A stretch of 64,000 bases of DNA, from the NCBI GenBank assembly GCA_017307785.1, contig JAFKGI010000012.1, forward strand, positions 64,001 to 128,000, written 5' to 3'. The translations under genes and the position numbers were made by a program. The notes below the pieces were generated by a model, which searched no databases, was not told where the DNA came from, and saw nothing but the letters and a program-made list of their open reading frames with translations. Source of the DNA: Vulcanimicrobiota bacterium. GTDB lineage: Bacteria; Vulcanimicrobiota; Xenobia; Xenobiales; JADMJV01. Below, piece by piece: positions 6,196-26,457 of the stretch; positions within the stretch are counted from its first letter, which is position 1, and every line of letters begins with the position of its first letter.

Positions 6196-6276
6196 CCGAG
6201 TTCTTTCCCGCCAGGGCCTCGACCCCCCTTGCAGTCCGGCACAAGGAGTTGCCCTGGGCAGAGCTAACCTTGGGCG

Positions 6277-6741: not shown

Positions 6742-6844
6742 TGTTAACGAAGTGACGGGTGAATTCACGATTTGGTAATGCCGTTCACCCGCCTGTAACG
6801 AATCCCACCCTCCCAAAGCTCTCAACACCCCTTACGATTTCTTT

Positions 6845-8655: not shown

Positions 8656-9666
8656 ATGAGACATCAATCCACTGAAGAGACCATCAAGGCTGATGAAGCC
8701 TTTAGCAAACGCAACTGGAAGGACGCGGAAGACTCCTTTCAGCGCATCCTGACTCGAGCTCCCGAGCATATCGAGGCTTATCTCGGTTTGGCCGAGACGC
8801 AGGCGGTGCTGGGGCACTTCACCAGTACCATTCAGACGCTCTGGCAGGCCGTGGAAATGTGCGAACAGACTGGCCAGCTCGAGCAGGCCCTGCAGATCAT
8901 CGGCCGCATCCTGGAGCTCAAGCCCGAGCACGAACTCTCTCTGGTCAAGCGGGTTGACTTGCTGTTCAGCAATCAGCGGAATGCCGATGGCGTTGCCTAC
9001 TCCCGCGAACTGGCTCAATGGTATCTAGAGAATGACAACGTGGACGCGGCTATCCGGGTCCTCCTGCGCGCCTTCCAGATCAATCACGACGACCTGGAGC
9101 TGACGCTGGTGCTGGCCGAGGCTTATTTGACCAACGGCCAGATGCGCGAGGCCACCGGTCTCTTCCGCCAGGTCATTCCTCACTTCTTGGAAGCCCAGGA
9201 ATGGGAGAAGGCGGCAGGCATCATGCGCCGCCTCAGCCTGATGGACCCCAAGGACCCGAAGAACTTCCTGGAGATGGGCGACCTGTATATCAAGCTGGAG
9301 CGCTACCAGGAGGCGGACCAACAGTTTCGCGCCGTGTTGCGCATCGACCTCAATCACCGCGAAGCCCTGCTAAAAATCGCCGAAGTCTCGCTGATTCGCA
9401 AGCTATTTCGCGACGCCTCGATGGTCTACAACCGCTTGATCACCCTGAGCTCCGACGACGCGGAAGCTCACGAAGGCCTGGGACTGGTCTATAAAGGCCA
9501 GGGGATGCAGGCCGATGCCGCCAAACACCTGCTGATGGCAGGCCTGGCCTATGCCGACAAAGAGAGCAAGGAGCTCGCCCACCGATGCTTCGCGGCCGTA
9601 CTGGAGATCGATCCGGCCAACAATATTGCCTCGCGACAAATGAAAATTCTGGCTCCGGGAGTCTGA
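8656..9666 (+). CDS. tetratricopeptide (TPR) repeat protein
   Basis: Repeated 34-residue helical repeats with the W-LG-Y/A-G-A-P pattern (AYLGLAETQAVLGHF, ALQIIGRILELKPEH, AHEGLGLVYKGQG). Confidence 0.8.
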   Translation: MRHQSTEETIKADEAFSKRNWKDAEDSFQRILTRAPEHIEAYLGLAETQAVLGHFTSTIQTLWQAVEMCEQTGQLEQALQIIGRILELKPEHELSLVKRVDLLFSNQRNADGVAYSRELAQWYLENDNVDAAIRVLLRAFQINHDDLELTLVLAEAYLTNGQMREATGLFRQVIPHFLEAQEWEKAAGIMRRLSLMDPKDPKNFLEMGDLYIKLERYQEADQQFRAVLRIDLNHREALLKIAEVSLIRKLFRDASMVYNRLITLSSDDAEAHEGLGLVYKGQGMQADAAKHLLMAGLAYADKESKELAHRCFAAVLEIDPANNIASRQMKILAPGV

Positions 9667-9671
9667 CGGAA

Positions 9672-10514
9672 ATGAAACTACCCAAAGGCACCACTTTCAT
9701 GCCCGAAGGACTGCTGGTCAGTGGTCCCGACCTCCAAAATATGCTGGAGAATCTGCAGCAAGATCACTTCTCCGGTTACCTGCGAGTGGATTTCTCGAAT
9801 GCTAAAAAAGGATTTATTTTTCTCTCTCGCGGCCAGATGCTGCGAGCTTTCGAATGGACTCCGGAATCCACCAAGCTGTATACGCCGGAACGACTGCTCG
9901 CCAAGGCCGGGGACGGAGCCGCCACATCCTCTTACGTGCTGACTGCGGAAATGTCGGAAACGCTGGCCACCTCCTTTGGCCTGGAGTCCAAGCCCGCCAG
10001 CAACTGGAGGGAGTCCATCCAGCAAGGTCGCCAGACTGGCTTTGTGGAGTTCAGCCAGCCCTTCGCCGGAGCCGTCCTCTATAGAAGAGGCGAGCCTATC
10101 CAGGAAAGCATGACCGGCCGCTACGGCGAGGTCATCTGCGGGCGAGAAGGACTTGGCCAGCTTCTCAAGGAGGGCACTCCCAGCCTGGTTTTTGCGGGTG
10201 ATCCGGCCGAGTTGGACGAGAAATTCCGAAAGGCCCACCAGGACCTCGAGGCCATGCGCGAAGCCAAGCTGAAGTCCGTTTCCGGCTTCTTCGCCACCAA
10301 AGATGCCCTGAAAGTGGAAGCCGAGTGGATCAGCGGCTGGGGAGTGAACCCCAAGGGTTTTAGTCTGGTCGTGGAAACCCCCGAGGGCAAGCGCCTGGGC
10401 AGTTTCAAGGCTATCACCGGCTGCAAAAAGCCCGGCGTCGTGGAAATTCCCCTGAAAATCCTTCAGGAATGGGGAGCCTCCGAGGACCAGGACGTGATGG
10501 TTTACCCGGAGTAA
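9672..10514 (+). CDS. hypothetical protein with two DUF4388-like repeats
   Basis: ATG at 9672 inside ORF 9585..10514. Two copies of a G.L...dL..mLe.LqQ...G.L.v pattern (GLLVSGPDLQNMLENLQQDHFSGYLRVDF ... GFIFLSRGQM; GFVEFSQPFAGAVLYRRGEPI). The DUF4388 assignment is from memory of that family's pattern. Confidence 0.35.
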   Translation: MKLPKGTTFMPEGLLVSGPDLQNMLENLQQDHFSGYLRVDFSNAKKGFIFLSRGQMLRAFEWTPESTKLYTPERLLAKAGDGAATSSYVLTAEMSETLATSFGLESKPASNWRESIQQGRQTGFVEFSQPFAGAVLYRRGEPIQESMTGRYGEVICGREGLGQLLKEGTPSLVFAGDPAELDEKFRKAHQDLEAMREAKLKSVSGFFATKDALKVEAEWISGWGVNPKGFSLVVETPEGKRLGSFKAITGCKKPGVVEIPLKILQEWGASEDQDVMVYPE

Positions 10515-11426: not shown

Positions 11427-12038
11427 ATGCGCTTGTCCGTCACCGTAGGTTTCGTAGCTTGCCTGGTAGGAATGGCCGCCGCCCAGCCCTCCTACCCGAC
11501 TTATCAGCAGAGCAACTACTCGAACCCCGCCAACAGCTACTCGATGCAGAATTCGCTGCCGGATCCCTACGGGCGCAACATCGCACCCTACTTCAACAAC
11601 CAGGAAGTTCGCCTGCCGAATCAAGCCTGGTCCGGCCACGTCGGCGAACTGGTACGCCAGGCCGACGGAGGGCTGTGGATCGTCAACACCAGCGGCCTCA
11701 TGCCCAAGGGTAGCACGGTCTCCATCATGCGAAACGGCCTGATGGTCAATGGCGGTCAGGTTGTGGAATCAGGGCAGGGAACCGCGCTCATCAAGCCCTG
11801 GGCCAGCAGCGACGTAAAGGGCGGGGACAACGTTTACCTCCAGTCCGTCGCGCCGGTAGCGGTGGCGCCCGTCTATGACAAGTTCCAGGTGAACCGGCCC
11901 AGCATGCAGGACCCCACCTATCTCTACTGGACCGATTATATGCACCAGGAGCACCCGGGCCAGATGACCTCGTTGTTCAGCAACTACAACGGCTGGGGCT
12001 ATAACCCCGGCTTCAACAACTACTACTACCGACGCTAA
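11427..12038 (+). CDS. secreted Asn/Tyr/Gln-rich hypothetical protein
   Basis: ATG at 11427 preceded by GGAGA (8-nt spacer). Signal peptide MRLSVTVGFVACLVGMAAAQP; the N- and C-termini are N/Y/Q/S-rich low complexity. Confidence 0.45.
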   Translation: MRLSVTVGFVACLVGMAAAQPSYPTYQQSNYSNPANSYSMQNSLPDPYGRNIAPYFNNQEVRLPNQAWSGHVGELVRQADGGLWIVNTSGLMPKGSTVSIMRNGLMVNGGQVVESGQGTALIKPWASSDVKGGDNVYLQSVAPVAVAPVYDKFQVNRPSMQDPTYLYWTDYMHQEHPGQMTSLFSNYNGWGYNPGFNNYYYRR

Positions 12039-12124: not shown

Positions 12125-15100
12125 ATGAACTCGGCGCCAGTTAAAATCTCGAAGGCCGCCCGATTGCTAGCGGAATTGCTAGCAGTCAGCGGCCTTTCTC
12201 TTTCCAAGCCGGCCTGGAGCACCGGACTACGGGCTTACGCGCGCACAGCCGATGCCACCCTGCCGAGCGGCGACCTCGACCCGGTGTTGCAGGAATTGAT
12301 CGACCACAACCTGGTCGTGCGCAGCAACGACCAGGTGAAATTGCTGGATCGATTCTATGAAGACATCATCCTGCAGATCCGGAAAGAACGAAGAGCCGGG
12401 CTCGCCTCCAGCGCGCTCTTCGACCACGTATTCCCATTACTCAGCAGCCCGTTTGATAAAGCCCAGGTCAATTTTCGCACCAGCCTGCTTTTCGGCACCG
12501 CCCGCTATGTCAATCAGAGCTATCATCAATTTGAAGGGGCGGCCGGCAAACCCCGCGAGCTGGCCCAGATCGCCCGCGGCTGGCTTCACGCCGAATCCTT
12601 CCAGCAGGTAGACTCGCGGTGGCACCAGGCCTTGCTGGAGAAGTCCCTGGAATGGGCGGTGGAACATTGCGAGGAGGCTCCTGGAGCGGTCGCTTTCTGT
12701 GAGCGCCAATCGCAACTGAACAACCAGGTCCTGCTCTACCTCGGCCTCTACTGGTTTATGCGAGGCAACGACGAGCAGACCAAGAGATTTTTGCAAGCCG
12801 CCAACCGCATACCCAGCCTTCCGGGACTGGTAGCCTTTGACCTGAAGCGCTACGACATCGCGGTAGAGTCGTTTGCTCAGGCCGCCAGTCGCACCGAGAA
12901 CCCCGTCCTTTACCTACCCGTGACCCGGCTGACGCGCGTGCTCTGCCTGCTGCGCAAGGGGGACGCTGCCCAGGCGCAAACTTGCTGCGGGCCCGACAAC
13001 CAGGGAGTTGACCCCTGGCTGCGCTGGCTCTGCGACCAACGGCAGGGCAAGGCCCGTCACTCACGTCCCTCCTACAGTGCGGCGGAAATGACCAGCTCCC
13101 TGTGGCTGACGGTCGCCAGCTGTGCTTTGACCGTCAACGACCGGGAACTGCAATCCCAGCTCCGCGAAAGCGGCGAGCAACTCGCTCAACAGGCCCAATC
13201 GCAAGGCTTTCTATGGGTCGAGCGCCAGGTTCGACGCTTCCTTCACAAGTTTGATCACGCTCGAGCCGAGTGCAGCCCCTGGGACTGCGTGGTGCCCGAA
13301 CAGCCCTGGAAGTTACGCCTGAAACAGCTGATGGACCTGGCCCAAAAGCCACGTATCGAACCAGAAGAGCGCATCATCTGGACGGTCAGACCGGTGGCGG
13401 CCGGCTGGGAAGCCGTTCCCAAACTGCAGAGTCAGGCCAAGCGCGGCGGATGGTCCAAGGGTCGCCAGCTAGAATTGTTCCGCACCCCGCCTCCCTGCGC
13501 CGATGAATACGACCTGCGTGTTTTCCGCCAGGCACTGGCGCGCAACTTCACCTTGAGCGATGTCTTTCATTCCCTGGTCGGCCATCCTCGCGTCTTTCAC
13601 GAAGACACGGGCCAGCAGATCGAGGTGGTGGAAGGCCGCCCCGAATTCCAGGTCAACAAGGGCCCCAACGGTCTGGCCGTGCGTATTTTGCCCAGTTGCC
13701 TTGACTCCAGTGGTCAGGTCTTGGAAATGGTGGGACACACCAGCCTGAAAGTCTACCGGTTTGATCCGCTTCTCCGGGAGTTTAGCGAGATTCTCGGCGA
13801 CGGCCTGGAAGTGCCCGAAAGCGAGCAGGCCGCCGTGCAGTTACTGCTCGACAAGCTCCCCGCCGAATTTGCGATTGCCTCCGACCTGGCCAGCGACGCC
13901 GTTCAGGAAGTAGCCGCCGACGCGACCCTTTATCTCCGAATCCGTCCGCTGCGTGAAGGCCTGGAGCTCAACATGCTGGTGCGTCCTCTGGGCAGCGACG
14001 GTCCCGAATACCCGCCGACCCACGGGGGTCAGCGAGTTCTGCTGCGGCAGCACGGACGTCGTGTGCAGGGAGTGCGCAACCTGGAGTTGGAAAGCCAGGC
14101 TTGCCAGGCGGTCCTGGACGCCTGCCCGGGCTTTGGTCCAGAGCAGGGAACGGCTCACTGGGTTACCACCGATCTGTCGGCCAGTCTCGAGGTGCTGGAA
14201 CAGGTCGGACGCCTGCCACCCGAAGCCCTGACGGTAGAGTGGCCTGAGGGCCAGTCCATGCGCATCCGCCACCGTGTCAGCGGAGAGAATCTGCGCCTGC
14301 AAGCCGAAACCCAGGGGGAATGGTTCAACGTTCAAGGCCAGCTGGAGTTGTCGGCCGAGGAACATTGGCACCTTCAGGAACTGCTCGAACGAATGCGCAA
14401 CCAGACGAGTCGCTTCATCGCCTTGGGCTCAGGAGAGTTCCTGGCGCTGACCGAAGAACTGCGTCGCCGCCTGGAGGAATTGACCAACCTGGTCGAGCCG
14501 TCCAAAGGCAAGGCCATCAAGGTCCACGGCCTGCTGGCCGGTGCCCTCCAAGAAGTGGCCCCGACGGAGGGCGACGAGTTTTTTCAGCAACGCCTGGCCA
14601 GGCTCAACGACAGCCAGTCGATCAAGCCTCCGCTGCCCAAGACCTTTCAGGCCGAGTTGCGTGGTTATCAGCAAGAAGGCTTTGAATGGCTCAGCCAGCG
14701 CGCCCACTGGGGCGTGGGAGCCTGTTTGTCAGACGACATGGGCCTGGGTAAAACCCTGCAGACGCTGGCTTTGCTGGTGCATCGAGCTCCTCTAGGACCC
14801 GCCCTGGTGATCGCCCCGACCTCCGTTTGCGGCAACTGGCTGGAGGAGGCACGCCGCTTCGCGCCTACCCTGCGCGTACACTGGCTGCTCGACGGAGAAC
14901 GCCAGACGATCGTGGAAAAAGCGGAAGCCTTCGACGTCTTGCTGGTGAGCTACGGAGTGGTGGTGCGCGAAATGAAGATTCTCAGCGCCCGCACCTTTGC
15001 CACCCTGGTGGTGGACGAGGCCCAGGCCATCAAGAATCACGCCACCCAAAGATTCCAAGCGGTGCTGAAGATCCCCAGCGACTTCCGCGTGGTGACCACT

Positions 15101-16012
15101 GGAACTCCAGTAGAGAATCGCCTGGAAGAACTGTGGGCGCTGTTTCGCTTTCTCAATCCCGGCCTTCTGGGCAGCCTCGAACGCTTCCGCGAGCGCTTCA
15201 TCGCCCCCATCGAGGCGGGTCAGGCACAGGCTCGCCAGCATCTCAAAAAGTTGGTGCATCCGTTCCTATTACGCCGAACCAAGACGCAGGTTCTCCATGA
15301 ACTACCGGCACGCACGGACATCACCCTGGAAGTACCTCTCAGCCCTGCGGAACGAACCTTCTACGAAGCTCTGCGCACCCGTGCTCTGGAAAAACTGAAC
15401 GGCAGCGAAATCGAAGCCATGCAGGTATTGGCCGAACTGACCCGCCTGCGCCGTGCCTGCTGCCACCCCTCGTTGGTGGAGCCGAAGAAAAAAGCGGGTG
15501 AAGGCTCCAAGCTGGAGGCCGTGCGGGAATTACTCCATGACATGCGTCAGGGTGGTCATCGAGCCCTGATCTTCAGCCAGTTCGTAGACCATCTCCAGCT
15601 CCTGCGCCAGGAACTCGACCAGCAAGGACTGAGTTACCAGTACCTGGATGGCACCACCCCGGCTCAGGAACGCCTGCGTCGGGTCAAGGCCTTCCAGGCC
15701 GGTGAGGGTGACGTGTTCCTCATCAGCCTGCGAGCCGGTGGCTTCGGGTTGAATTTGACCGGCGCCGACTACGTGATTCACATGGATCCTTGGTGGAACC
15801 CGGCGGTGGAAGATCAAGCGTCGGATCGAGCCCATCGAATCGGCCAGCAGCGACCGGTCACCGTCTACCGACTGGTGGCCAAAGACACGGTGGAAGAGAA
15901 GATCCTGGCGCTGCACAGGCAGAAACGAGAATTGGCTCACGGTTTGTTAGAGGGAGCCGAAGAAGGAGTGCGTTTGAGCGCCGGCGAGTTGCTGGCTCTG
16001 ATGCAGGCATAG
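12125..16012 (+). CDS. SNF2-family DNA-dependent ATPase/helicase with bacterial SNF2-associated domain (paralogue 1)
   Basis: DEXD motifs (LSDDMGLGKTLQTLALLV, VVDEAQAIKN, TGTPVENRLEELW) and a helicase-C region (ALIFSQFVDHL, LDGTTPAQER, ISLRAGGFGLNLTGADYVIHMDPWWNPAVEDQASDRAHRIGQ). The middle region (VEWPEGQSMRI...GEWFNVQGQLEL) resembles the bacterial SNF2-associated domain; 1295 aa. Confidence 0.85.
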   Translation: MNSAPVKISKAARLLAELLAVSGLSLSKPAWSTGLRAYARTADATLPSGDLDPVLQELIDHNLVVRSNDQVKLLDRFYEDIILQIRKERRAGLASSALFDHVFPLLSSPFDKAQVNFRTSLLFGTARYVNQSYHQFEGAAGKPRELAQIARGWLHAESFQQVDSRWHQALLEKSLEWAVEHCEEAPGAVAFCERQSQLNNQVLLYLGLYWFMRGNDEQTKRFLQAANRIPSLPGLVAFDLKRYDIAVESFAQAASRTENPVLYLPVTRLTRVLCLLRKGDAAQAQTCCGPDNQGVDPWLRWLCDQRQGKARHSRPSYSAAEMTSSLWLTVASCALTVNDRELQSQLRESGEQLAQQAQSQGFLWVERQVRRFLHKFDHARAECSPWDCVVPEQPWKLRLKQLMDLAQKPRIEPEERIIWTVRPVAAGWEAVPKLQSQAKRGGWSKGRQLELFRTPPPCADEYDLRVFRQALARNFTLSDVFHSLVGHPRVFHEDTGQQIEVVEGRPEFQVNKGPNGLAVRILPSCLDSSGQVLEMVGHTSLKVYRFDPLLREFSEILGDGLEVPESEQAAVQLLLDKLPAEFAIASDLASDAVQEVAADATLYLRIRPLREGLELNMLVRPLGSDGPEYPPTHGGQRVLLRQHGRRVQGVRNLELESQACQAVLDACPGFGPEQGTAHWVTTDLSASLEVLEQVGRLPPEALTVEWPEGQSMRIRHRVSGENLRLQAETQGEWFNVQGQLELSAEEHWHLQELLERMRNQTSRFIALGSGEFLALTEELRRRLEELTNLVEPSKGKAIKVHGLLAGALQEVAPTEGDEFFQQRLARLNDSQSIKPPLPKTFQAELRGYQQEGFEWLSQRAHWGVGACLSDDMGLGKTLQTLALLVHRAPLGPALVIAPTSVCGNWLEEARRFAPTLRVHWLLDGERQTIVEKAEAFDVLLVSYGVVVREMKILSARTFATLVVDEAQAIKNHATQRFQAVLKIPSDFRVVTTGTPVENRLEELWALFRFLNPGLLGSLERFRERFIAPIEAGQAQARQHLKKLVHPFLLRRTKTQVLHELPARTDITLEVPLSPAERTFYEALRTRALEKLNGSEIEAMQVLAELTRLRRACCHPSLVEPKKKAGEGSKLEAVRELLHDMRQGGHRALIFSQFVDHLQLLRQELDQQGLSYQYLDGTTPAQERLRRVKAFQAGEGDVFLISLRAGGFGLNLTGADYVIHMDPWWNPAVEDQASDRAHRIGQQRPVTVYRLVAKDTVEEKILALHRQKRELAHGLLEGAEEGVRLSAGELLALMQA

Positions 16013-16015
16013 ACA

Positions 16016-16450
16016 ATGAAGAGGTTCCTGATTTTACTATTGCTTGTCGCGCAGGCCGCGCTGGCGGAAGAACCTCCCAAGGATCAGTTGACGGAGCTGT
16101 ATTCCAAACTGGGAGCCGTGTCGCCTAAGGTGGTCAAAGCCGGCTACACCATCTTGCACGTGGAGTTTGACCGCCTGGCGCCTGGGGGCGAATACTCCCT
16201 GCGACGTGACCTGTCCGCCAAAAATAAATACAAGGTCGTCGGCGTTGGGGCCAAAGGCATCACCGACCTGCAGGTGCGCGTGATCGACCCCAAAGGCCAG
16301 GGAGAAACCAACGACCGCCAGGTGGACAGCGTGGCTATCATCAATATGGTTCCGAAGACCAGCGGACTCTACACGATCAAGGTTGGGGCCGGCAAAATCA
16401 ACGCCGACCATCCTTACTTCTTCTGTTTGATCGCGAGTAAACCAAAATAA
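16016..16450 (+). CDS. small secreted hypothetical protein
   Basis: ATG at 16016; signal peptide MKRFLILLLLVAQAALA; 144 aa with a predicted beta-rich body and no known motif. Confidence 0.45.
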   Translation: MKRFLILLLLVAQAALAEEPPKDQLTELYSKLGAVSPKVVKAGYTILHVEFDRLAPGGEYSLRRDLSAKNKYKVVGVGAKGITDLQVRVIDPKGQGETNDRQVDSVAIINMVPKTSGLYTIKVGAGKINADHPYFFCLIASKPK

Positions 16451-16543
16451 AACAGGGACCCCGTTGGCCGCTGGGATGTAAACGAATGCACCCACAACTG
16501 TTACGAAATTTTCAACGTTTCCGAGACCATTTCACGAATGTCT

Positions 16544-16559
16544 ATACTCCGCGGAGTAT
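16544..16559. promoter_or_regulatory. perfect 16-bp palindrome ATACTCCGCGGAGTAT in a promoter region
   Basis: Lies 43 nt upstream of the ATG at 16602, in the intergenic region between the two genes interposed between the SNF2 helicases. Contains a TATACT -10-like hexamer. Confidence 0.4.
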
Positions 16560-16601
16560 CCTCTAAGCAGACCCACACCAGGGAAGGCTTGGAGGCAAAA
16601 A

Positions 16602-17795
16602 ATGGCGATCAGTCTCGGTTCAATTGGCAGCTTTTTCAACCGCGCGGTCGGCTTATCAAATGCTCCAGGCACCAATCAGGGCGCCCCTGGTTTTGCTCCG
16701 GTTAGCGGTTCCGACGTCGCCAATTTCTCCGACGAAATGCTGGAGGGGATGCAAAATCCCCTGGTGGATTCGATGGCCCAGACGTTGCAACAGGTCCAAC
16801 TGGCCCAAAGCTTCGGTGCCGATGCTTCGACTTCACTGCAGCAACTCCAGCAAGAATATCAGGCGGCCCAGAGCCAGGGGGTAGCTCTCCCCACCGAACT
16901 GCAGCAAGCCGTCGAGCAAGTCTTAAGCCAGGCCGGCCTGCTTCCCGGACTGGGCCAGGACCCTTCGCTGCCGGGGGCATCCCAGCCGGGTAGCGGAGAG
17001 GGCTCCGGAGGAACCTCCCCCCAGGCAGCCTCGGATGGTGGCGGTCAAACAGCGGCCGCCCAGGCCGTTGCGCCCACCAGCGCTGGCGGCGAAACCTGGA
17101 GTCAAGCCGCTCTCTTCGATCAAGCGATGGCGAACGAGCCGGCCGACTTCCGCAATCCGGAAGCCTGGGCGCAAGGTGATAGCGCCGGCAATTGCTCGGC
17201 CGTCGCCGTCATCAAGGCCGCCACCGCCGAGAGCGGCAACGCGATTTTCGAAAGCGTGCGCAAGACCGAAACCGGCTATGTAGTGACCACCCAGGACGGC
17301 CGCACCGTCACCGTCAGTCAGGCCGAACTGGCCGCAGCTCAAAAGACGAGCGATTTCGAAGGTCCAGACAGCCCTGCCAAGGCCCAGGCGGTGATGGCTG
17401 CCGGGGTCATCGCCAAAAGTTACCAGAGCGAACATCCCGGAATGACCTACCAACAGGCACTTCATGCCACCAACGGTGTGTATGACCAGAAGTCCAACCC
17501 CAAGGCCGAAGGAATCTATCCGGAGGATGCCGCCCGCCTGCTGGGCATTCCCTACTCTCGAACCAGCGTGCAGACTGCCGTCCAAGATGTGAAGAACGGC
17601 CGTGGAAGCGAGGCCGCCATCCTGTACAACGGCCGCCACGCCGAAGTGGTCACCGGCAATCGCCAGGGCGGCGCCAAAGTCGACGACTACGGACGCAGCA
17701 CCAATACCAACGGCCAGATCAGCAAGAATGGTCAAACCAGCCAGGCGACCAACGGTATCGAATTGCACAGCAAGCCGAAACCGAAAGCCGCCTGA
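16602..17795 (+). CDS. hypothetical protein; Gln/Ala-rich N-terminus, C-terminal Cys/His-containing globular domain
   Basis: ATG at 16602 with GGAGG 6 nt upstream. No signal peptide. The C-terminal region has a single Cys in GDSAGNCSAVAV followed by conserved-looking His residues (HPGMTY, GRHAEVVTG), which fits a papain-like or other Cys-His hydrolase fold but is unproven. Confidence 0.4.
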   Translation: MAISLGSIGSFFNRAVGLSNAPGTNQGAPGFAPVSGSDVANFSDEMLEGMQNPLVDSMAQTLQQVQLAQSFGADASTSLQQLQQEYQAAQSQGVALPTELQQAVEQVLSQAGLLPGLGQDPSLPGASQPGSGEGSGGTSPQAASDGGGQTAAAQAVAPTSAGGETWSQAALFDQAMANEPADFRNPEAWAQGDSAGNCSAVAVIKAATAESGNAIFESVRKTETGYVVTTQDGRTVTVSQAELAAAQKTSDFEGPDSPAKAQAVMAAGVIAKSYQSEHPGMTYQQALHATNGVYDQKSNPKAEGIYPEDAARLLGIPYSRTSVQTAVQDVKNGRGSEAAILYNGRHAEVVTGNRQGGAKVDDYGRSTNTNGQISKNGQTSQATNGIELHSKPKPKAA

Positions 17796-17844
17796 CGCTC
17801 CTCTCCTGAAGGCCCCACGGGCTCGGCTGTAGCATAGAAAGGGG

Positions 17845-20800
17845 ATGAGCTCGAAGAATGCCTCGGGGGGAGTGGCGGAGACACCTGTGCCCTCGGCGCG
17901 CTACAAGGCGTTGGGCTCCCTGATCCACGGTTTGCTCGAACGCCTCGAAGATCACAACCGGATCCTCTCTCAACTGAAAAGCGCCCACTGCAATCCAAAG
18001 ACCGTCTATTGGGAATTGCCGGCCTTCGTCGCTCCCCTGCTGGGCCAGCTGGCCATGGAACTGAAGGCCGCCACCGAAGAACTCGGTGGCTGGCTTTTTG
18101 TCGAAGAGCTGGCCAGAGCCATTGCCTCCGAGAAGAATGTGGTGGGCAATCTCATTCGGTTGGCCTCGCTACTGCAGGCTTTTGGCTGTCGACTGGCCGA
18201 GGGCAAAGTCATCTGCACCGACGCTTCTCGTTTGGAATTGATTGACCACCTGCGAGCCAGTGGGCAGGTACCCGGACCTCTGAGTCATTTAGAAGCCAGC
18301 AGCAGAGCTTTTTTCGGTCGCCAGGTAGACGAGAAGACTCTGGCTTCCCTGATTGGACAGACACTCTCTCCGGGTGTGGTAGCGGAGGTGGACCGGAAGC
18401 CGGTCGTCTTCAGCCTGGACCGTCCCCCATCGTGCCGCGATCTTTTGCTCGGCTGTCTACGTCTCTGGAAAGGTCCCCTCAGCTTACGGGAGTTGTTGAC
18501 ACGGCTCAAAAGGCTGGAAGCCTTCCAGGCCACCGCCCTGGAACTGGAAATGGAAGTCCACGGCCTCAAAGCCGAAGGGAAAGTCGGCGAGCGCGAAGGC
18601 CTTTTCTTCTTAGAAGACAGCCATCCCGACCCATCGGACCCGCAAAGCCCGGCCGAAGTAGCTGACCTGGTCTTCCAGACCTTGTTTGAGATCGCCACAG
18701 CCGATGGTGTCGTCCGGCCTGAAGAGATGACTTTGATTGGCAACCTGCTGGCGGTCGAATTCGAACTACCCGCCGACGTCCGTGAACCCTTCGAGACCTT
18801 GCTGGGGATGGCGGTCCATCGTTCTCTCAATCATCGGCAACTGGGGCAGTCTCTATCGGCCAAGAAGCTGGCTAGCTTTTCTCAAGAGTTGCGAGACCAC
18901 GTGTTCCGCGGCGCGGTTGCGGTTGCATTCGTGGACCTGGAGATTCACGAACACGAGCGGCAGGCTCTGGAGGTGGTGGCCAAACGCCTGCGTACCTCCC
19001 TGCCGGCCCCGGCGGTGGTGGAGCGTTTCGGGGAGATGTGCCGCCCACCTTACGTGGACTACGCTTACTTCGGCATTCTCCCCGACCGCTACGATCCTGA
19101 TCGCTTGCATCACAAATTGCTGATTTTACAGAATCACTACCTGGAGAAGCTGGCCGGAGACAACCGACCCCCCGCTCAAGAGGTGGAACGACTGCAGGCT
19201 CTGCTGGCGGAGTTTTATCGCGGGATGCCTTCTTTGCCGGCCCCGTGGCTGGTGGGCCTGGACCTGAAAAACCCCGTCCTGCCGCTTCACAGTCTGCGGC
19301 CGCTGCACTGCTTTTTGCGCGTGGCCCGCAGCGACGGGCCTCTGAACTCGGTCGAGTCGCAAACGATCGCGCGGTTGGTCCGAGGCAGCTTGCACGACCT
19401 TCAGGATCGCGCCCTCTGGAATCTGCAAACCCGCCCTCTGGCGGAGCTGCACATTCCCGCCCCGGAACCGGAAGAACCGGACCTGCGGACACTCAGCTTC
19501 AGCCTGGTGGTGGCCCTTTGCGATGGTCCTCTGAACGTGGAGAAATCCCGCGAATTGCTGTCCCTGGCCAGCGACCTGGGGGTGTCCGAGCGCAGCTTTC
19601 AAGTCCTGCATCAACTGGAGCAGGCCGCCAGGCGTCACCTGCAGGAAGACCCGGGACTGGAGCAGCTCCAGCGTTTGGAGCTGGCTCTCGAGGCGGCCGA
19701 GCGTCTGCCTCGAGACTCGGCCCCACCTTCGGCCGTAGCCACTCCCCTGGTCCTGCCGGATTTACAGCCCGGGGGCCATCCTTACCTGGTCGTCATCCGT
19801 CCCTCGGGTCGGCACAATTTTATTGTTCACCTGCGCGTCCGTTCCGAACTCAATGACGTGCCCTTCCTGCAAGAGCAGCTGAACGCGGCAATCGAGGCTC
19901 GTCCCTGGTTACGCGACCAGTGCGCCGGTAGAAGTTGGTTCCTTTGCAAGGGAGTCAGCAACTGCCTGAGACTATTGCAAGAAGTAAAAGAGAGCCCCTT
20001 CGAAGTGCAGTGGCCTCACGGTCAGCCTTTCCAGGTCCTGGGAAAAGCCGGCCTGCACAACTTGAGAGCCACCATCGGCCAGAAACAGGGATGGTTCGAG
20101 ATCGGCGGCAAGCTTCAGCTAGGACAGGGCCATCAGATCGGTTTATTGGACCTGCTCGACCGCGTCCGGCAGAACCCCGAAGCCATCGCCGTAGCTCCCG
20201 ACACCTTCGTCCAGCTTGACGACGCGCTGCGTTCCCAACTGGAGAAACTCAACTCGCTGCTGCCGGAGGGACTGCACGCGTCCACCATCGACCCCTTGAG
20301 GGCACGCCTGGTGGCCGGCCAGGTCCACTTCTTTGAAGATCAGACCAACAATCACGAGTTCTCGCGCCTGGCGGCCCTGATCGAGGAAGCCGGAGAACTG
20401 AAACCCGATCTCCCGGCCGAGCTTTGGGAGAGACTGCGAGACTACCAGAAAGAGGGTGTGGAGTGGATGCTGCGCACCCTGCACGCCGGATTGGGAGCCT
20501 GCCTGGCCGACGACATGGGACTGGGCAAGACTCTGCAAACGCTTTGTGTGCTCTATCACCGTCGCGCCCAGGGGCCCAGTCTGGTGGTGGCGCCCACTTC
20601 GGTCACCTACAACTGGAAAGAGCAAGCGCAACGCTTCCTGCCGGATCTGCGCGTGTTGCTCTACGAAGGTCCTGGCCCTGTCCGTCACCTGGCCGCCGAA
20701 AAGCTGGATGAATACGAAGTGGTCGTGGTCAGCTACGGGATTTTTCACAAAGACCACGCTCTACTCGGAGCTCGCGACTGGAACTGCCTGGTGTTGGACG

Positions 20801-21780
20801 AAGCCCAAAAAATCAAAAACCCCTCCTCAGCCACGGCTCGTAGCGCCTTTGACATGAAAGCGCGGGCACGCCTGGCCACGACCGGAACTCCCATCGAAAA
20901 TCACCTGGTGGAACTGTGGAGTTTGATGAACTTCCTCAACCCGGGATTGCTCGGCACGCAGAATCATTTTCGCCAGACCTACCTGACGCGCGGAGACGAT
21001 GCGGCCGAGTCCGACCGCCTCAGCAGACTGCGATCTCAGGTCGGCCATTTCATTCTGCGTCGGCGGAAACAGATGGTGGCTCCGCAACTGCCGGCCAAGC
21101 TGGAGACCGTCCACCGCATCGACCTGAGCAGCGAGGAAAGGGAGTTCTACAACCAGATCCGGCGTGGTGCCCTGCAAATGCAGAAAGAGGACCGCATCAG
21201 CCTGCTGACCGCCTTGACCCGATTGCGCCAGGCCTGCTGCGATCCGGCCCTGGTGGACGAACAATGGACCTCGCCCAGCTCCAAGATTTCAGCGGCGGTG
21301 GAAATTCTGGCCGAAGTCAGTGCGGAGGGGCACCAGATTCTGGTGTTCAGTCAGTTTGTCTCCCTGCTCAATCGTCTCGCCCGCCATCTGGATGAGGAAG
21401 GGCTCCCCTATCGCAGCCTCTACGGATCCACTCCAGTCGAAGAGCGAAGAGCGCTGGTGGACGACTTCCAACAGGGGAAATTCCGAATTTTCCTGATCAG
21501 CTTGAAAGCCGGCGGCACGGGCCTCACTTTGACGCGCGCGGATTACGTTCTCCACCTCGACCCCTGGTGGAATCCGGCCGTAGAAGACCAGGCCACCGAC
21601 CGGGCCCACCGCATCGGGCAGACCCAGACGGTCAATGTCTACCGTCTGATTGCCCGCGAAACGGTCGAGGAAAAAGTGCTGGAACTGCATCAAAGCAAAC
21701 GCGAACTGGCGGAATCGGTGTTGGCCCAAGACGGTTCGCCCAGCCTCCTCAGCGTCGAGGACCTGAAAGCTCTACTGTAA
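17845..21780 (+). CDS. SNF2-family ATPase/helicase with N-terminal TerB-like repeats and SNF2-associated domain (paralogue 2)
   Basis: ATG at 17845 with GAAAGGGG upstream. Four TerB-like segments (FEIATADGVVRPEEMTLIGNLL; FVDLEIHEHERQALEVVAKRL; LRVARSDGPLNSVESQTIARLV; VVALCDGPLNVEKSRELLSLASDLGV). SNF2-associated-like region (EVQWPHGQPFQV...GWFEIGGKLQL). DEXD motifs (DDMGLGKTLQTLCVL, LDEAQKIKNP, TGTPIENHLVELW) and helicase-C (LKAGGTGLTLTRADYVLHLDPWWNPAVEDQATDRAHRIGQ); 1311 aa. Confidence 0.85.
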   Translation: MSSKNASGGVAETPVPSARYKALGSLIHGLLERLEDHNRILSQLKSAHCNPKTVYWELPAFVAPLLGQLAMELKAATEELGGWLFVEELARAIASEKNVVGNLIRLASLLQAFGCRLAEGKVICTDASRLELIDHLRASGQVPGPLSHLEASSRAFFGRQVDEKTLASLIGQTLSPGVVAEVDRKPVVFSLDRPPSCRDLLLGCLRLWKGPLSLRELLTRLKRLEAFQATALELEMEVHGLKAEGKVGEREGLFFLEDSHPDPSDPQSPAEVADLVFQTLFEIATADGVVRPEEMTLIGNLLAVEFELPADVREPFETLLGMAVHRSLNHRQLGQSLSAKKLASFSQELRDHVFRGAVAVAFVDLEIHEHERQALEVVAKRLRTSLPAPAVVERFGEMCRPPYVDYAYFGILPDRYDPDRLHHKLLILQNHYLEKLAGDNRPPAQEVERLQALLAEFYRGMPSLPAPWLVGLDLKNPVLPLHSLRPLHCFLRVARSDGPLNSVESQTIARLVRGSLHDLQDRALWNLQTRPLAELHIPAPEPEEPDLRTLSFSLVVALCDGPLNVEKSRELLSLASDLGVSERSFQVLHQLEQAARRHLQEDPGLEQLQRLELALEAAERLPRDSAPPSAVATPLVLPDLQPGGHPYLVVIRPSGRHNFIVHLRVRSELNDVPFLQEQLNAAIEARPWLRDQCAGRSWFLCKGVSNCLRLLQEVKESPFEVQWPHGQPFQVLGKAGLHNLRATIGQKQGWFEIGGKLQLGQGHQIGLLDLLDRVRQNPEAIAVAPDTFVQLDDALRSQLEKLNSLLPEGLHASTIDPLRARLVAGQVHFFEDQTNNHEFSRLAALIEEAGELKPDLPAELWERLRDYQKEGVEWMLRTLHAGLGACLADDMGLGKTLQTLCVLYHRRAQGPSLVVAPTSVTYNWKEQAQRFLPDLRVLLYEGPGPVRHLAAEKLDEYEVVVVSYGIFHKDHALLGARDWNCLVLDEAQKIKNPSSATARSAFDMKARARLATTGTPIENHLVELWSLMNFLNPGLLGTQNHFRQTYLTRGDDAAESDRLSRLRSQVGHFILRRRKQMVAPQLPAKLETVHRIDLSSEEREFYNQIRRGALQMQKEDRISLLTALTRLRQACCDPALVDEQWTSPSSKISAAVEILAEVSAEGHQILVFSQFVSLLNRLARHLDEEGLPYRSLYGSTPVEERRALVDDFQQGKFRIFLISLKAGGTGLTLTRADYVLHLDPWWNPAVEDQATDRAHRIGQTQTVNVYRLIARETVEEKVLELHQSKRELAESVLAQDGSPSLLSVEDLKALL

Positions 21781-22563
21781 CAACCTCGACTGCAAGAAGG
21801 CCACCACTCGGTTAAATTCCGCCTCCAGCTCCGGAAGATGCTCCTTTTCCAAAGCTTTCTCTTGCTGTCCAAGCATTTCGGCGAGTCGCATCGCGCCGAC
21901 CATTCCGGCACTTCCTTTGAGCGAGTGCAAGGTATGAGAGCTGTAGTTGAGAGCCAGACTACCCAACTGACGCCGTCCTTCGGCCGTGAACGTCTCGATC
22001 AATTCTCGCTCGAATTCCGCGTCGTCCATACAAGAACGGTTGAGCGCGTCCAAATCGACCGGTGATCCGACCATTTCCTGTTGCTGAGCCAGACAAGGGC
22101 AACGAAACAACTCTCCGGGCGAAAAGCGCGCTCCCACCTGAGCCGCCAGATAGTCGACCAGAGGTCCCCGAACCCGCTCTCGACCCTGCGGCAGGGTGCT
22201 CAGGAAAACCAGCTCGGAGTCGTCCCCCTCAATCGAAATAGCGATGGAAATCGAGGGAGGGGTTTCTCCAAAGGCCTGCCAGTTAAGGGCCACCAGAAGA
22301 TATTCCAGCGCCTGCGGATGCCCCCAGCGCAAAGAAACCAATCCTTCCCGCGGCTGCAGCAGCAGGCCCCGGCGACGGCCCACATCGACAGCCCAGGCCT
22401 GCACTTCAAAAAGCTGCGGCCCCCCGTCTCGACGGGCGAACTCGCAAGCCAAGTTCCCCTGGCGAGCCAGCCAGCGCAGTTCGGACAACGAGGCCGGCTC
22501 CTGCAGGCCCCTATCCAGATCCGACCAGAGCTCTTCCCAGACTTCGAGAGGGAAGGAACTCAC
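21772..22563 (-). CDS. Hpt (histidine phosphotransfer) domain protein
   Basis: C-terminal Hpt signature HSLKGSAGMVGAMRLAEM; 263 aa. The start overlaps the stop of the upstream receiver gene by 4 nt. Confidence 0.6.
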   Translation of the reverse strand: MSSFPLEVWEELWSDLDRGLQEPASLSELRWLARQGNLACEFARRDGGPQLFEVQAWAVDVGRRRGLLLQPREGLVSLRWGHPQALEYLLVALNWQAFGETPPSISIAISIEGDDSELVFLSTLPQGRERVRGPLVDYLAAQVGARFSPGELFRCPCLAQQQEMVGSPVDLDALNRSCMDDAEFERELIETFTAEGRRQLGSLALNYSSHTLHSLKGSAGMVGAMRLAEMLGQQEKALEKEHLPELEAEFNRVVAFLQSRLLQ

Positions 22564-22949
22564 TGGACAACCACTTTCGCCATCAAAGACTTAACCCGTT
22601 GCACCAATTCGGCCGGGTCGAAAGGCTTCGGCAAGAAGTCGTCCGCGCCGGCGCGTCGGGCTTGTTCCGCGATGTCACTTTCCGTGATCGAACTGAAGAT
22701 CAGCAGCGGGATATGCTTGAAATCCAGATGGAATTTGAGCAGACGGCACAGCGCCATACCGTGCAGGGAAGGCAAAATCAGGTCCATCAGCAGCAGGTCA
22801 GGCTTCTTCATCTGAATGGCGCGGTAAGCTTCCAGGCCATCGTGAAAGAGTGTTACCTTCACTTCGGGTAATTGTAAGAGAGCGCGCTTGACCCCCAACG
22901 CCTGGGTAGGACTGTCTTCGACCACGTAGATTTGAAGGAGTTCGCTCAT
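22560..22949 (-). CDS. single-domain response regulator (CheY/PilH-like receiver)
   Basis: ATG at 22949 (MSELLQIYVVEDSPTQ...). Conserved receiver Asp pocket (VVEDS), phospho-acceptor D in LLLMDLILP, and T/K equivalents (IFSS...KPF). Confidence 0.8.
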   Translation of the reverse strand: MSELLQIYVVEDSPTQALGVKRALLQLPEVKVTLFHDGLEAYRAIQMKKPDLLLMDLILPSLHGMALCRLLKFHLDFKHIPLLIFSSITESDIAEQARRAGADDFLPKPFDPAELVQRVKSLMAKVVVQ

Positions 22950-23042
22950 CCTGGGGGCCGTTCGCGCTCGCTCAGGCATTTCCCCGTGGTCCCAGGACCA
23001 GCCGCAAATTAGACCGAAAACCGGTCCAGGAGAATTCAAAAC

Positions 23043-24248
23043 TTGGCCAGATTTACCTATGAGGCGCAGGACGCTCAACAACATACCGTAACGGGTACGC
23101 TGCAGGCCGCCGATCGCGATGCGGCCCTACAGACGTTGTCGGAAAAATACCCCCTGGTCACCGAATTGACGGAACTCAAAACCAAGCAGTCGCTGCTGGG
23201 AATGTTTCGTCGCGGACCGAGCGCGGAGCAAATTCTGGCCGTTTACCAGCAGTTGGCCGTCGCCACCAATGCCGGGGTACCTCTGAAGCAGAGCCTGGAT
23301 ACCATGGCGGAGGATTCAGACAGCCCCCGCCTCCAGGCGGTGCTCTTTCAAATGTCAGCCTCCCTGTCTTCGGGCTCGACCTTGAGTCAGGCCATGAGCG
23401 AACACCCCGAAGTCTTCGCCGCCTATCAGCCGAAACTGGTCCAGGCTGGCGAGGTTTCCGGTAAGATGTCCGAAGTGCTGATCCAGCTCGCGGCCGATAT
23501 GGAAGGTCGCGAGGCCCTGACCAGCCAGGTCCGCTCCGCCATCGCCTACCCGATTTTCGTCATGGTGGTGGCCGGGCTACTCTCGGCCGGGATGTTGGGC
23601 TGGGGTGTGCCCCAGATCAAGGGCGTTTTCGATGCAATGGGGGCTGAGCTGCCGCTTCCCACCCGGTTTCTGGTCTTGATCGGTCTGAGTCTATCGCAGA
23701 ATTGGTGGATGTGGATTTTGGGTCTGGCGCTGGCCTTCTATCTCTACCGGCGACTCTCGAAGAATGCGCGAGTTCGCCATTTCGTGGAGCGAGTGGTGCT
23801 CGTCAGCTGGCCTTTCGGAGAAGTGTATCGACTGCTCAACGTCTCGCTGTTCGCGCGCACCCTGGGACTGCTCTACCGCAGCGGACTGCCGCTGTCCACA
23901 GCCCTGGAGGTCCTCGGGGAGGCGACTTCCAGCCTGCGCATGGTCGACGTCGTCAACACGCTGAAGCGCCGCGTCACCCACGGAGAATTACTCTCCTCGG
24001 CGATGCGCGGCACAGGATTCTTTCCTTCGATGGCCATCGAGATGGTCTCCACCGGGGAAAGTTCCGGCTCTCTCGACAAGATGCTGACCGAACTGGATCG
24101 GTTCTACACCCGCCGCTGCGAACACTCGATCAAGGCCCTCACCAGTCTGATCGAACCCGCCCTGACGGTGGTGGTGGGAATTCTGCTGGGCGGCGTAATT
24201 CTAGGATTGGCCCTGCCTTTCCTGAATCTGCCGGCTTTGATGATGTGA
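23043..24248 (+). CDS. type II secretion / type IV pilus platform protein GspF/PilC family
   Basis: TTG start at 23043. Typical GspF N-terminus (FTYEAQDAQQHTVTGTLQA), two T2SSF repeats and three TM segments; 401 aa. Confidence 0.85.
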   Translation: MARFTYEAQDAQQHTVTGTLQAADRDAALQTLSEKYPLVTELTELKTKQSLLGMFRRGPSAEQILAVYQQLAVATNAGVPLKQSLDTMAEDSDSPRLQAVLFQMSASLSSGSTLSQAMSEHPEVFAAYQPKLVQAGEVSGKMSEVLIQLAADMEGREALTSQVRSAIAYPIFVMVVAGLLSAGMLGWGVPQIKGVFDAMGAELPLPTRFLVLIGLSLSQNWWMWILGLALAFYLYRRLSKNARVRHFVERVVLVSWPFGEVYRLLNVSLFARTLGLLYRSGLPLSTALEVLGEATSSLRMVDVVNTLKRRVTHGELLSSAMRGTGFFPSMAIEMVSTGESSGSLDKMLTELDRFYTRRCEHSIKALTSLIEPALTVVVGILLGGVILGLALPFLNLPALMM

Positions 24249-24249
24249 A

Positions 24250-24616: not shown

Positions 24617-24623
24617 GCGGGGA

Positions 24624-26425: not shown

Positions 26426-26457
26426 GGAAGCCTCAGTTCCAATCCGAAGCACAGGCG

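What the first reader, a model, noticed from the sequence alone, without database searches (positions are those of the whole stretch)
12125..21780. Tandem paralogous ~1300-aa SNF2 helicases, one with four TerB-like repeats, bracketing a small secreted protein and a possible Cys/His hydrolase
Two same-strand SNF2-family ATPases share a bacterial SNF2-associated middle domain and intact DEXD and helicase-C motifs, but they differ completely in their ~500-aa N-terminal regions. The second carries four segments matching the TerB-like pattern (hydrophobic-x-A-x-(A/S/C)-D-G-x-h-x-x-x-E-x-x-x-h). TerB domains recur in Ter-type stress and phage-defence-associated loci. Between the two helicases sit a signal-peptide 144-aa protein and a 397-aa protein that has no signal peptide, a Q/A-rich N-terminus, and a C-terminal domain with a lone Cys (GNCSAV) and downstream His residues, resembling a papain-like effector. 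A paired-helicase cassette with interposed small genes looks more like an accessory (possibly defence or nucleic-acid-surveillance) module than housekeeping RapA.
Basis: partly seen in the sequence, partly recalled or inferred. Interest (0 to 1): 0.65.

Follow-up and report, generated by a model that had tools for sequence, protein, structure and literature searches.

The report
Lineage-specific pair of SNF2 helicases
Two large DNA-motor (SNF2) proteins, one carrying an unusual pair of TerB-type sensor domains, sit side by side in one small group of uncultured Eremiobacterota bacteria, with a previously unclassified papain-like protease gene inserted between them; it looks like inherited chromosomal equipment and shows none of the marks of a mobile anti-phage defence cassette.

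The parts
8656..9666 (+). TPR336: tetratricopeptide-repeat protein, the first gene of the co-conserved unit
   Evidence: Pfam TPR families. 69-89% identical and in the same position in L010, L012, L020 and L021.
9672..10514 (+). g280: 280-aa protein with no family match, co-conserved
   Evidence: No Pfam, PADLOC or PHROG hit. 48-76% identical orthologues in the same position.
11427..12038 (+). g203: 203-aa protein with a signal-peptide-like N-terminus and Y/N/Q-rich ends, immediately upstream of H1 in every H2-bearing lineage
   Evidence: Translation. 73-95% identical orthologues. Absent next to the stand-alone H1 orthologues.
12125..16012 (+). H1: 1295-aa SNF2 ATPase (public gene calls start 13 codons later, giving 1282 aa). 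This is the lineage's copy of a widespread stand-alone bacterial SNF2_assoc-type helicase.
   Evidence: SNF2-rel_dom at aa 848-1117 and Helicase_C at aa 1129-1240. Full-length orthologues at 58-91% identity; cyanobacterial relatives 51-56% identical in the motor.
14147..14665 (+). H1 pre-motor region (aa 675-847) shared with H2; equivalent to the C-terminal half of SNF2_assoc
   Evidence: BLASTP alignment starts at 675/695. PF08455 lies at 747-945 of relative P0021, which aligns to this stretch.
16016..16450 (+). P144: small protein with a Sec-type signal-peptide-like N-terminus. It starts 3 nt after the H1 stop.
   Evidence: Codon-position substitution pattern 431/304/755 and GC3 0.72 against 0.60 for the antisense ORF. 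Present after H1 in every H2-bearing locus. No family match.
16602..17795 (+). P397: conserved N-terminal segment, Q-rich helices, variable G/P/A-rich linker, then a papain-fold domain. It occupies the variable slot.
   Evidence: Alignment A1. Only ~9 homologue clusters exist, all in Eremiobacterota. Every locus with enough flanking sequence shows it between P144 and H2.
17088..17792 (+). P397 C-terminal domain (aa 163-397): clan CA (papain-like) fold. The candidate nucleophile C198 is the codon at 17193-17195.
17845..21780 (+). H2: 1311-aa SNF2 ATPase with a clade-restricted N-terminal region containing TerB-like domains
   Evidence: Pfam TerB, SNF2-rel_dom (aa 867-1135) and Helicase_C (aa 1147-1258). 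The N-terminal 700 aa match one other 50%-identity cluster among 1.84e9 representatives. Found in 4 of ~185,000 species genomes.
18628..19029 (+). H2 TerB-like domain 1 (aa 262-395; Pfam hit at 278-383)
   Evidence: PF05099 at 43.2 bits against a cutoff of 24.4. There is also a sub-threshold match to the DjlA model.
19252..19644 (+). H2 TerB-like domain 2 (aa 470-600), divergent
   Evidence: PF05099 at 17 bits in the window, 18.8 in L019 and 25.2 in P0073. Internal duplication at E=3.6e-6; link to domain 1 at E=0.007.
21772..22979 (-). Hpt protein and receiver-domain protein, convergent with H2. Neighbours, not part of the conserved unit.
   Evidence: Pfam Hpt and Response_reg. Absent downstream of H2 in L020.

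Best explanation
This is a vertically inherited chromosomal neighbourhood specific to a narrow clade (order Xenobiales) of Eremiobacterota/Vulcanimicrobiota. It is not a mobile cassette. It holds two deeply diverged SWI2/SNF2 motors of the bacterial SNF2_assoc type. H1 is the lineage's copy of a helicase that occurs alone in other Eremiobacterota, cyanobacteria and myxobacteria. H2 is a clade-restricted paralogue that keeps the pre-motor and motor regions. Its N-terminal ~690 aa is a different region containing two TerB-like helical domains. Shown: the domain content, the intact ATPase motifs, the phyletic distribution, the synteny, and the variable slot. Inferred: both proteins use ATP to translocate on double-stranded DNA and displace or reposition DNA-bound proteins, affecting transcription or repair, as SNF2 motors generally do. 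In H2 that activity or its targeting would be gated by the TerB-like modules, a domain class described as ligand-sensing. P144 is a small, probably exported protein inherited together with the pair. P397 is a previously unclassified papain-fold cysteine peptidase with a probable Gln-Cys-His-Asp active site. It was inserted later into a gene-turnover slot between P144 and H2, and it probably acts independently of the helicases.
For: Domains and motifs. Nearest solved relative for both motors is the SSO1653 SWI2/SNF2 core 1z63 (E 1e-87 and 2e-94). The conserved order TPR-g280-g203-H1-P144-[slot]-H2 holds in the window, L010, L012/L016, L018, L019, L020, L021 and L022, with H1 identity from 62 to 100%. 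Slot content varies: P397 alone; 3D-domain protein + P397 + M13 peptidase (L010, L018); nothing (L017 with a 75-nt gap, L020 with a 14-nt gap); an enoyl-CoA hydratase fragment (L021); or ~1.6 kb without P397 (L019). H1 stands alone in three other contexts. H2's motor is 40-44% identical both to H1 orthologues and to cyanobacterial homologues, whereas H1 is 51-56% identical to the latter, so the duplication is old or H2 came from elsewhere. The H2 N-terminus matches one 50%-identity cluster worldwide and occurs in 4 species genomes. Composition is typical. There is no tRNA gene or Rfam match in the window, no viral relatives, and no match beyond the pre-motor and motor regions (from residue ~638) on plasmids or phages. 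P397 fold and invariant residues.
Against: No experiment or expression data bears on function. The tight packing of H1-P144-H2 (3-32 nt and 14-75 nt gaps where the slot is empty), kept down to 62% H1 identity, could reflect a real functional unit rather than passive synteny. An exported protein translationally coupled to a cytoplasmic helicase is odd and unexplained. Wider synteny (DUF979 and the 5'-nucleotidase upstream) is also kept in L020, so conservation of gene order has little discriminating power here. The ligand of the TerB domains is unknown. The papain-like assignment rests on a model of moderate confidence (pLDDT 67), and the triad geometry could not be measured.
Confidence: 0.6

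Rival explanations
1. H1-P144-H2 is the core of a new anti-phage or nucleic-acid-surveillance system. H2's TerB domains sense an infection signal, the SNF2 motors act on foreign DNA, and the variable slot supplies interchangeable hydrolase effectors (papain-like P397, M13 peptidase, 3D-domain protein).
For: SNF2 ATPases are components of Zorya, DISARM, Dpd and BREX-type systems, and the PADLOC DpdE and ZorD models score up to 605 bits on these proteins. A secondary source describes TerB as a ligand-sensing domain of the Ter conflict system (PMC7824862). A conserved scaffold with a variable hydrolase slot resembles the effector swapping seen in defence systems. The H2 architecture is narrow and lineage-specific.
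Against: The PADLOC hits cover only the generic motor and pre-motor regions, and all curated equivalog cutoffs fail by a wide margin. P144, P397 and seven of eight flanking genes have no PADLOC hit; the TPR protein has only two weak ones. No nuclease, methylase or MotAB-like partner was found. The slot is empty in two lineages. Composition is typical, there are no mobility genes or tRNA, and nothing was found in viral contigs. The unit sits at a fixed chromosomal position in all ~8 lineages, which is not the patchy distribution typical of defence islands.
Confidence: 0.12
2. The helicases are transcriptional regulators of the adjacent type IV pilus / type II secretion-like gene cluster and work with the neighbouring Hpt and receiver proteins.
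For: Hpt, a receiver protein, T2SSF, pseudopilin-like genes, DUF7305, PilM_2 and a T2SSE ATPase follow H2 directly in the window, L010, L012 and L018. A stand-alone H1 orthologue (P0019) lies 2.4 kb from another T2SSF/N_methyl cluster with GGDEF-EAL and PilZ genes. The second-best NCBIfam hit for both helicases (after SCO1167/SCO6262) is 'pilus expression-regulating Snf2 family helicase', and a pneumococcal Snf2 protein represses pilus genes (Basset 2017, as listed in the references of PMC7900414).
Against: In L020 the H1-P158-H2 unit is followed by rhodanese and ThiF genes, with no Hpt, receiver or pilus genes. L014 shows no pilus genes within 10 kb of H1. Hpt and the receiver gene converge on H2, so they are not co-transcribed with it. 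The NCBIfam score is 400 and 384 against a cutoff of 1100, and that family concerns a sortase-type pilus and an unlinked gene.
Confidence: 0.1
3. H1 and H2 are a recent tandem duplication of a RapA-like RNA-polymerase recycling factor with redundant housekeeping function.
For: Same strand, adjacent, similar length, and 42% identical motors.
Against: H2's motor is no closer to H1 than to cyanobacterial homologues. The N-terminal ~670-690 aa are unrelated. The RapA equivalog scores 26.7 and 22.1 bits against a cutoff of 576, and RapA is not among the best 60 solved-structure hits listed for either protein.
Confidence: 0.05

Closest known systems
Bacterial SNF2_assoc (PF08455)-type Snf2 helicases, including NCBIfam SCO1167/SCO6262 helicases (NF058637) and the pneumococcal pilus-repressing Snf2 protein family (NF053675)
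   Same: The motor plus a ~170-aa pre-motor region. These are the best NCBIfam hits (440-459 and 384-401 bits). Relatives of H1 carry PF08455 and sometimes a SWIM finger. They occur as stand-alone chromosomal genes.
   Different: Scores are far below the equivalog cutoffs of 1200 and 1100. The N-terminal regions are different. H2's TerB-containing N-terminus was seen in none of the 62 relatives listed.
Defence-system SNF2 proteins: ZorD (Zorya), DpdE (Dpd), DrmD (DISARM)
   Same: SNF2 motor, with strong PADLOC profile hits over the C-terminal 450-880 aa.
   Different: The curated equivalog models fail (ZorD 240/1500, DpdE 41/500, DrmD 71-96/950). There is no Mrr-like nuclease domain, and no partner hits in the flanking genes scanned. 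There is no island-like context.
RapA/HepA
   Same: A bacterial SNF2-family ATPase.
   Different: 26.7 and 22.1 bits against a cutoff of 576, and a different N-terminal architecture.
TerB (PF05099) and the TerB-like domain of DjlA
   Same: H2 278-383 matches PF05099 above the cutoff and gives a sub-threshold match to the DjlA model (30 bits against 162). The paired h-x-A-x-A/C-D-G...E motif helices are present.
   Different: Here the domain is fused, in two copies, to an SNF2 motor. No other ter genes (TerA, C, D, E, Z; TelA) are among the neighbours scanned.
Clan CA (papain-fold) cysteine peptidases: calpain core, staphopain, streptopain, C39, UfSP, USP-like deubiquitinases
   Different: 8-15% identity to the listed chains, no match to any Pfam, NCBIfam, PHROG or PADLOC profile, and no significant PDB sequence match (best E 1.9). 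It has an unusual N-terminal half: a conserved 'MALSLGSIGxFFxRA' segment, Q-rich helices and a G/P/A linker, with no Sec signal. The family is known only from this one genomic slot.

Membership tests
SNF2 family ATPase | SNF2-rel_dom (PF00176) and Helicase_C (PF00271) above the gathering scores | tested here: met
   H1 220 and 89.7 bits; H2 219 and 86.7 bits.
SNF2 family ATPase | Intact ATPase motifs I (GxGKT), II (DExx), III and VI | tested here: met
   Read from the translations and the pairwise alignment: DMGLGKT, DEAQ, TGTP(V/I)EN and DRAHRIGQ are present in both.
Bacterial SNF2_assoc-type helicases (PF08455) | A PF08455 match upstream of the motor | tested here: inconclusive
   No direct hit, even at E<=10 on fragments. 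Relative P0021 has PF08455 (29.9 bits against 27) over the stretch that aligns to the pre-motor region shared by H1 and H2.
RapA | NCBIfam PRK04914 at or above 576 bits | tested here: not met
   26.7 bits (H1) and 22.1 bits (H2).
Zorya ZorD | NF041790 at or above 1500 bits, and ZorA/B/C partner genes nearby | tested here: not met
   240.5 and 241.4 bits. None of the eight flanking proteins scanned matched a Zor model; the only hits were two weak, unrelated matches to the TPR protein.
Dpd system DpdE | NF041062 at or above 500 bits, and DpdA-K partner genes | tested here: not met
   H1 scores 40.9 bits; H2 is not listed. The PADLOC DpdE profiles hit only the C-terminal part. No partner hits in the flanks.
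DISARM DrmD | NF038318 or NF038317 at or above the cutoff (950 or 610) | tested here: not met
   70.7 and 95.5 bits; 46.9 bits.
Pilus expression-regulating Snf2 helicase (NF053675) | Equivalog score at or above 1100 bits | tested here: not met
   400.9 and 384.3 bits, covering only the pre-motor and motor regions.
TerB domain (PF05099) | A profile match above the gathering score of 24.4 bits | tested here: met
   H2 278-383 scores 43.2 bits.
TerB domain (PF05099), second copy | A profile match above the gathering score in H2 ~470-600 | tested here: inconclusive
   17.0 bits in the window, 18.8 in L019 and 25.2 in orthologue P0073. In hhalign, the two halves of domain 2 match at E=3.6e-6, and the first halves of domains 1 and 2 match at E=0.007.
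Ter stress/defence operon | Co-located TerA/C/D/E/Z, TelA or associated biosynthetic genes | tested here: not met
   None appeared among the ~24 window genes scanned with Pfam or in the precomputed annotations of related loci.
Clan CA papain-like cysteine peptidase (P397) | Papain-like alpha+beta fold | tested here: met
Clan CA papain-like cysteine peptidase (P397) | Conserved Gln/Cys/His/Asp(Asn) residues in the canonical order and secondary-structure positions | tested here: met
   Q191, C198, H346 and D361/D362 are invariant in 9 sequences. C198 lies at the N-terminus of a helix and H346 at the start of a strand.
Clan CA papain-like cysteine peptidase (P397) | Triad residues in catalytic geometry; thiol-dependent hydrolase activity | not testable with these tools
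Sec-exported protein (P144) | An N-terminal signal peptide with n, h and c regions and a cleavage site | tested here: inconclusive
   MKR + FLILLLLVAQAAL + A-L-A|EE can be read directly, and the hydrophobic N-terminus is kept in 5 orthologues. No signal-peptide predictor was available.
Mobile or defence island | Atypical composition, flanking tRNA, integrase or transposase genes, patchy distribution | tested here: not met
   GC is 0.58-0.63 across the block. Tetranucleotide z is -1.4 to +0.25. There are no tRNAs. The block sits at the same position in ~8 lineages.

The most novel reading that the evidence does not exclude
H1-P144-H2 (with g203 upstream) is a real three- or four-gene functional system invented in Xenobiales. 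A TerB-gated SNF2 motor and a second SNF2 motor would act together on DNA, either as a new kind of defence system with swappable hydrolase effectors in the slot, or as a pathway coupling an envelope or ligand signal (through exported P144) to remodelling of DNA-bound proteins.
Probability: 0.12. Interest if true: 0.65.

Novelty: new variant of a known kind. Interest (0 to 1): 0.3.

Why it matters
Bacterial SNF2 ATPases other than RapA and the defence-associated ones are poorly understood. An SNF2 motor fused to two TerB-like domains, a domain class described as ligand-sensing, would be a natural example of a signal-gated bacterial remodeller. That makes it a handle on what both TerB domains and bacterial SNF2 proteins do. 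P397 defines a small papain-fold peptidase family that existing profile libraries do not capture. Both come from Eremiobacterota, a phylum with very few cultured members. On present evidence, though, this is lineage-specific gene content of a narrow uncultured clade without a demonstrated system-level function, so the wider impact is limited.

Tried and rejected


Full report
OBSERVATION. The four ORFs exist exactly where stated: H1 at 12125-16012 (1295 aa), P144 at 16016-16450, P397 at 16602-17795 and H2 at 17845-21780 (1311 aa), all on the + strand. Pfam finds SNF2-rel_dom and Helicase_C in both large proteins and TerB (43.2 bits, cutoff 24.4) at H2 278-383. P144 and P397 match nothing above threshold in Pfam, and nothing at all in NCBIfam, PADLOC or PHROGs. 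BLASTP between H1 and H2 gives 42% identity over 675-1293 against 695-1311 and nothing before that. The unrelated N-termini are therefore ~670-690 aa, and the shared part begins ~170 aa upstream of the motor. Motifs I (DMGLGKT), II (DEAQ), III and VI are intact in both proteins.

SNF2_ASSOC. Pfam SNF2_assoc is not detected directly, even on fragments at E<=10. In P0021, a cyanobacterial relative of H1, PF08455 (29.9 bits against a cutoff of 27) covers residues 747-945, immediately before the motor. That stretch aligns with the shared pre-motor region of H1 and H2. The 'SNF2-associated middle domain' is therefore supported by transitive homology only.

TerB REPEATS. They are best read as two TerB-like domains with two motif helices each. 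Domain 1 passes the Pfam cutoff. Domain 2 scores 17 bits in the window, 18.8 in L019 and 25.2 (above cutoff) in the orthologue P0073. In profile-profile comparison the two halves of domain 2 match each other at E=3.6e-6, and the first halves of the two domains match at E=0.007.

P144 AND P397. An antisense ORF (16037-16495) overlaps P144. Substitutions among five orthologues fall 431/304/755 on + frame codon positions 1/2/3, and GC3 is 0.72 against 0.60, so P144 is the gene. Its N-terminus (MKR-FLILLLLVAQAAL-ALA|EE) looks like a Sec signal, and all orthologues keep a hydrophobic N-terminus.

P397 has only ~9 homologue clusters, and the few that carry a source name are Eremiobacterota. The family alignment shows a conserved N-terminal segment, Q-rich helices, a variable G/P/A-rich linker and a strongly conserved C-terminal domain with invariant Q191, N197-C198-S199, H278, H346-A-E348 and D361-D362. 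C198 is the only cysteine in the protein.

SOURCE AND CONTEXT. Identical proteins occur in bioreactor metagenomes. NCBI names the source 'bacterium SCN 62-11' or Candidatus Eremiobacteraeota, and related assemblies are labelled Vulcanimicrobiota and 'Xenobiales'. In the window the block is preceded by a TPR protein, g280, g240 (minus strand) and g203, which has a signal-peptide-like N-terminus. It is followed by convergent Hpt and receiver genes and then a T2SSF / pseudopilin / DUF7305 / PilM_2 / T2SSE cluster. The window contains no tRNA gene and no Rfam match. GC is flat at about 0.60, and tetranucleotide composition of the block is typical, with z from -1.4 to +0.25. No integrase or transposase domain appeared among the window genes I scanned.

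DISTRIBUTION. The 700-aa N-terminal region of H2 matches exactly one other 50%-identity cluster among 1.84 billion representative proteins (P0073, 58% identical, same architecture) and one other 90%-identity cluster in the word-indexed search. A pattern scan of ~185,000 species genomes found four carriers, all Vulcanimicrobiota. None of the 62 SNF2 relatives retrieved with H1 carries TerB.

H1 is much more widespread. It has full-length orthologues at 58-62% identity, and relatives in cyanobacteria and myxobacteria at 37-48% identity, some carrying SNF2_assoc or SWIM domains. In three such genomes H1 stands alone in unrelated contexts, without g203, P144, P397 or H2.

H2's motor is 40-44% identical both to H1 orthologues and to the cyanobacterial homologues, whereas H1 is 51-56% identical to the latter. 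H2 is therefore not a recent tandem copy of H1.

SYNTENY. In every H2-bearing locus with enough sequence, the order is TPR336-g280-(g240)-g203-H1-P144-[slot]-H2. These are the window, L010, L012/L016, L013, L018, L019, L020, L021, L022 and a JGI contig, with H1 identity from 62 to 100%.

The slot is variable:
- P397 alone in the window, L012, L013, L022 and the JGI contig.
- A 3D-domain protein, P397 and an M13 peptidase in L010 and L018.
- Nothing in L017 (75 nt) and L020 (14 nt).
- A 125-aa enoyl-CoA hydratase fragment in L021.
- About 1.6 kb without any P397 signal in L019, where a full-sensitivity profile search was negative.

P397 occurs only where H1 is at least 86% identical to the window copy, and in every locus with enough flanking sequence it lies in this slot. 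It is a late insertion, not a fixed partner of the helicases. The Hpt, receiver and pilus genes follow H2 in the close relatives, but in L020 rhodanese and ThiF genes follow it instead, so that adjacency is not conserved either.

DEFENCE-SYSTEM TESTS. PADLOC 'DpdE' and 'ZorD' profiles hit both helicases strongly (up to 605 bits), but only over the motor and the region before it. The curated NCBIfam equivalogs all fail by large margins: ZorD 240 of 1500, DpdE 41 of 500, DrmD 71-96 of 950, RapA 22-27 of 576, SCO1167 440-459 of 1200, and the pilus-regulating Snf2 family 384-401 of 1100. P144 and P397 have no PADLOC hit, and among eight flanking genes only the TPR protein gave two weak, unrelated matches. 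Searches of phage and plasmid records match only the pre-motor and motor part of H2 (residues ~638-1311) at under 45% identity. Viral contig scans with the H2 N-terminal profile and the P397 profile found nothing. For both motors the nearest solved structure is the archaeal SSO1653 SWI2/SNF2 core (1z63), followed by eukaryotic remodellers.

INTERPRETATION. The best-supported reading is a vertically inherited, clade-specific chromosomal neighbourhood. H1 is the lineage's copy of a widespread stand-alone bacterial SNF2_assoc-type ATPase. H2 is an old paralogue, or an acquired relative, whose N-terminus carries two TerB-like domains. This architecture was not seen outside this clade in any search run here.

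By inference from the SNF2 family, both proteins are ATP-driven double-stranded-DNA translocases that remodel protein-DNA complexes. TerB domains are described as ligand-binding modules that might sense a signal (PMC7824862), so in H2 they plausibly gate or target the motor. A bacterial precedent for a Snf2 protein of this general type acting on gene expression is the pneumococcal repressor of pilus genes. I know this only from the title as listed in the references of PMC7900414.

P397 is a new, very narrow family of papain-fold cysteine peptidase, probably with a Gln-Cys-His-Asp active site and an unknown substrate. It lodges in a slot that also collects other hydrolase genes.

What stays unexplained is why a probably exported 144-aa protein is kept tightly coupled between two cytoplasmic helicases down to 62% H1 identity. 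That leaves a small probability that H1-P144-H2 is a real functional unit, possibly a defence or signalling system. General synteny is also conserved well upstream: DUF979 and the 5'-nucleotidase are present in both the window and L020. Conservation of gene order is therefore weak evidence on its own.

VERDICT. TerB, the papain-like fold and 'not RapA' hold; the four-gene defence cassette does not. Novelty is a new domain-architecture variant of a known enzyme class, plus a new member of a known protease fold. Interest is modest.

Noticed in passing
window 21772-29093: Convergent Hpt and receiver genes are followed by a type IV pilus / T2SS-like cluster: T2SSF, two pseudopilin-like genes with hydrophobic N-termini, DUF7305, PilM_2 and an MshEN+T2SSE ATPase. 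The cluster sits next to H2 in close relatives but not in L020.
   Followed up: partly
GCA_041443025.1 contig carrying P0019 (no DNA held): A stand-alone H1 orthologue lies 2.4 kb from a different T2SSF/N_methyl cluster with GGDEF-EAL and PilZ genes. This is a second, unexplained proximity of this helicase family to pilus-type genes.
   Followed up: no
window 4478-6242 (- strand): An MbnB/TglH/ChrH-like (DUF692) enzyme next to a DUF2063 protein, a pairing typical of RiPP precursor modification. No convincing precursor ORF was seen in 6242-6850.
   Followed up: partly
window 16037-16495 (- strand); L019 7894-8391 (- strand): A 152-165 aa antisense ORF overlapping P144 stays open in two diverged genomes, but the codon-position substitution pattern shows it is non-coding.
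   Followed up: yes
L010 9532-9849 and 11340-13499; L018 6067-6393 and 7830-9971: In two lineages the slot between the helicases also holds a ~105-aa 3D-domain protein and a ~715-aa M13 metallopeptidase, so the slot accumulates hydrolase genes.
   Followed up: partly
window 31689-33161 (- strand): A Ser/Thr protein kinase with a C-terminal region that gives a sub-threshold match (20 bits, cutoff 26) to the GyrI-like small-molecule-binding domain.
   Followed up: no
window 6845-8593 (+ strand): A 582-aa proline-rich, low-complexity protein with one hydrophobic segment and a C-terminal CxxC...CxxC motif. It has no family match and only ~32-51% identity in relatives.
   Followed up: no
window 12125-12163 and 17845-17886: Start-codon ambiguity: public gene calls give H1 as 1282 aa and H2 as 1297 or 1311 aa.
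   Followed up: no
window 16602-16750 (P397 aa 1-50): The N-terminal segment 'MALSLGSIGxFFxRA' is conserved across the family, although the model predicts it to be disordered and it is not a Sec signal. It may be a targeting or membrane-binding element.
   Followed up: no
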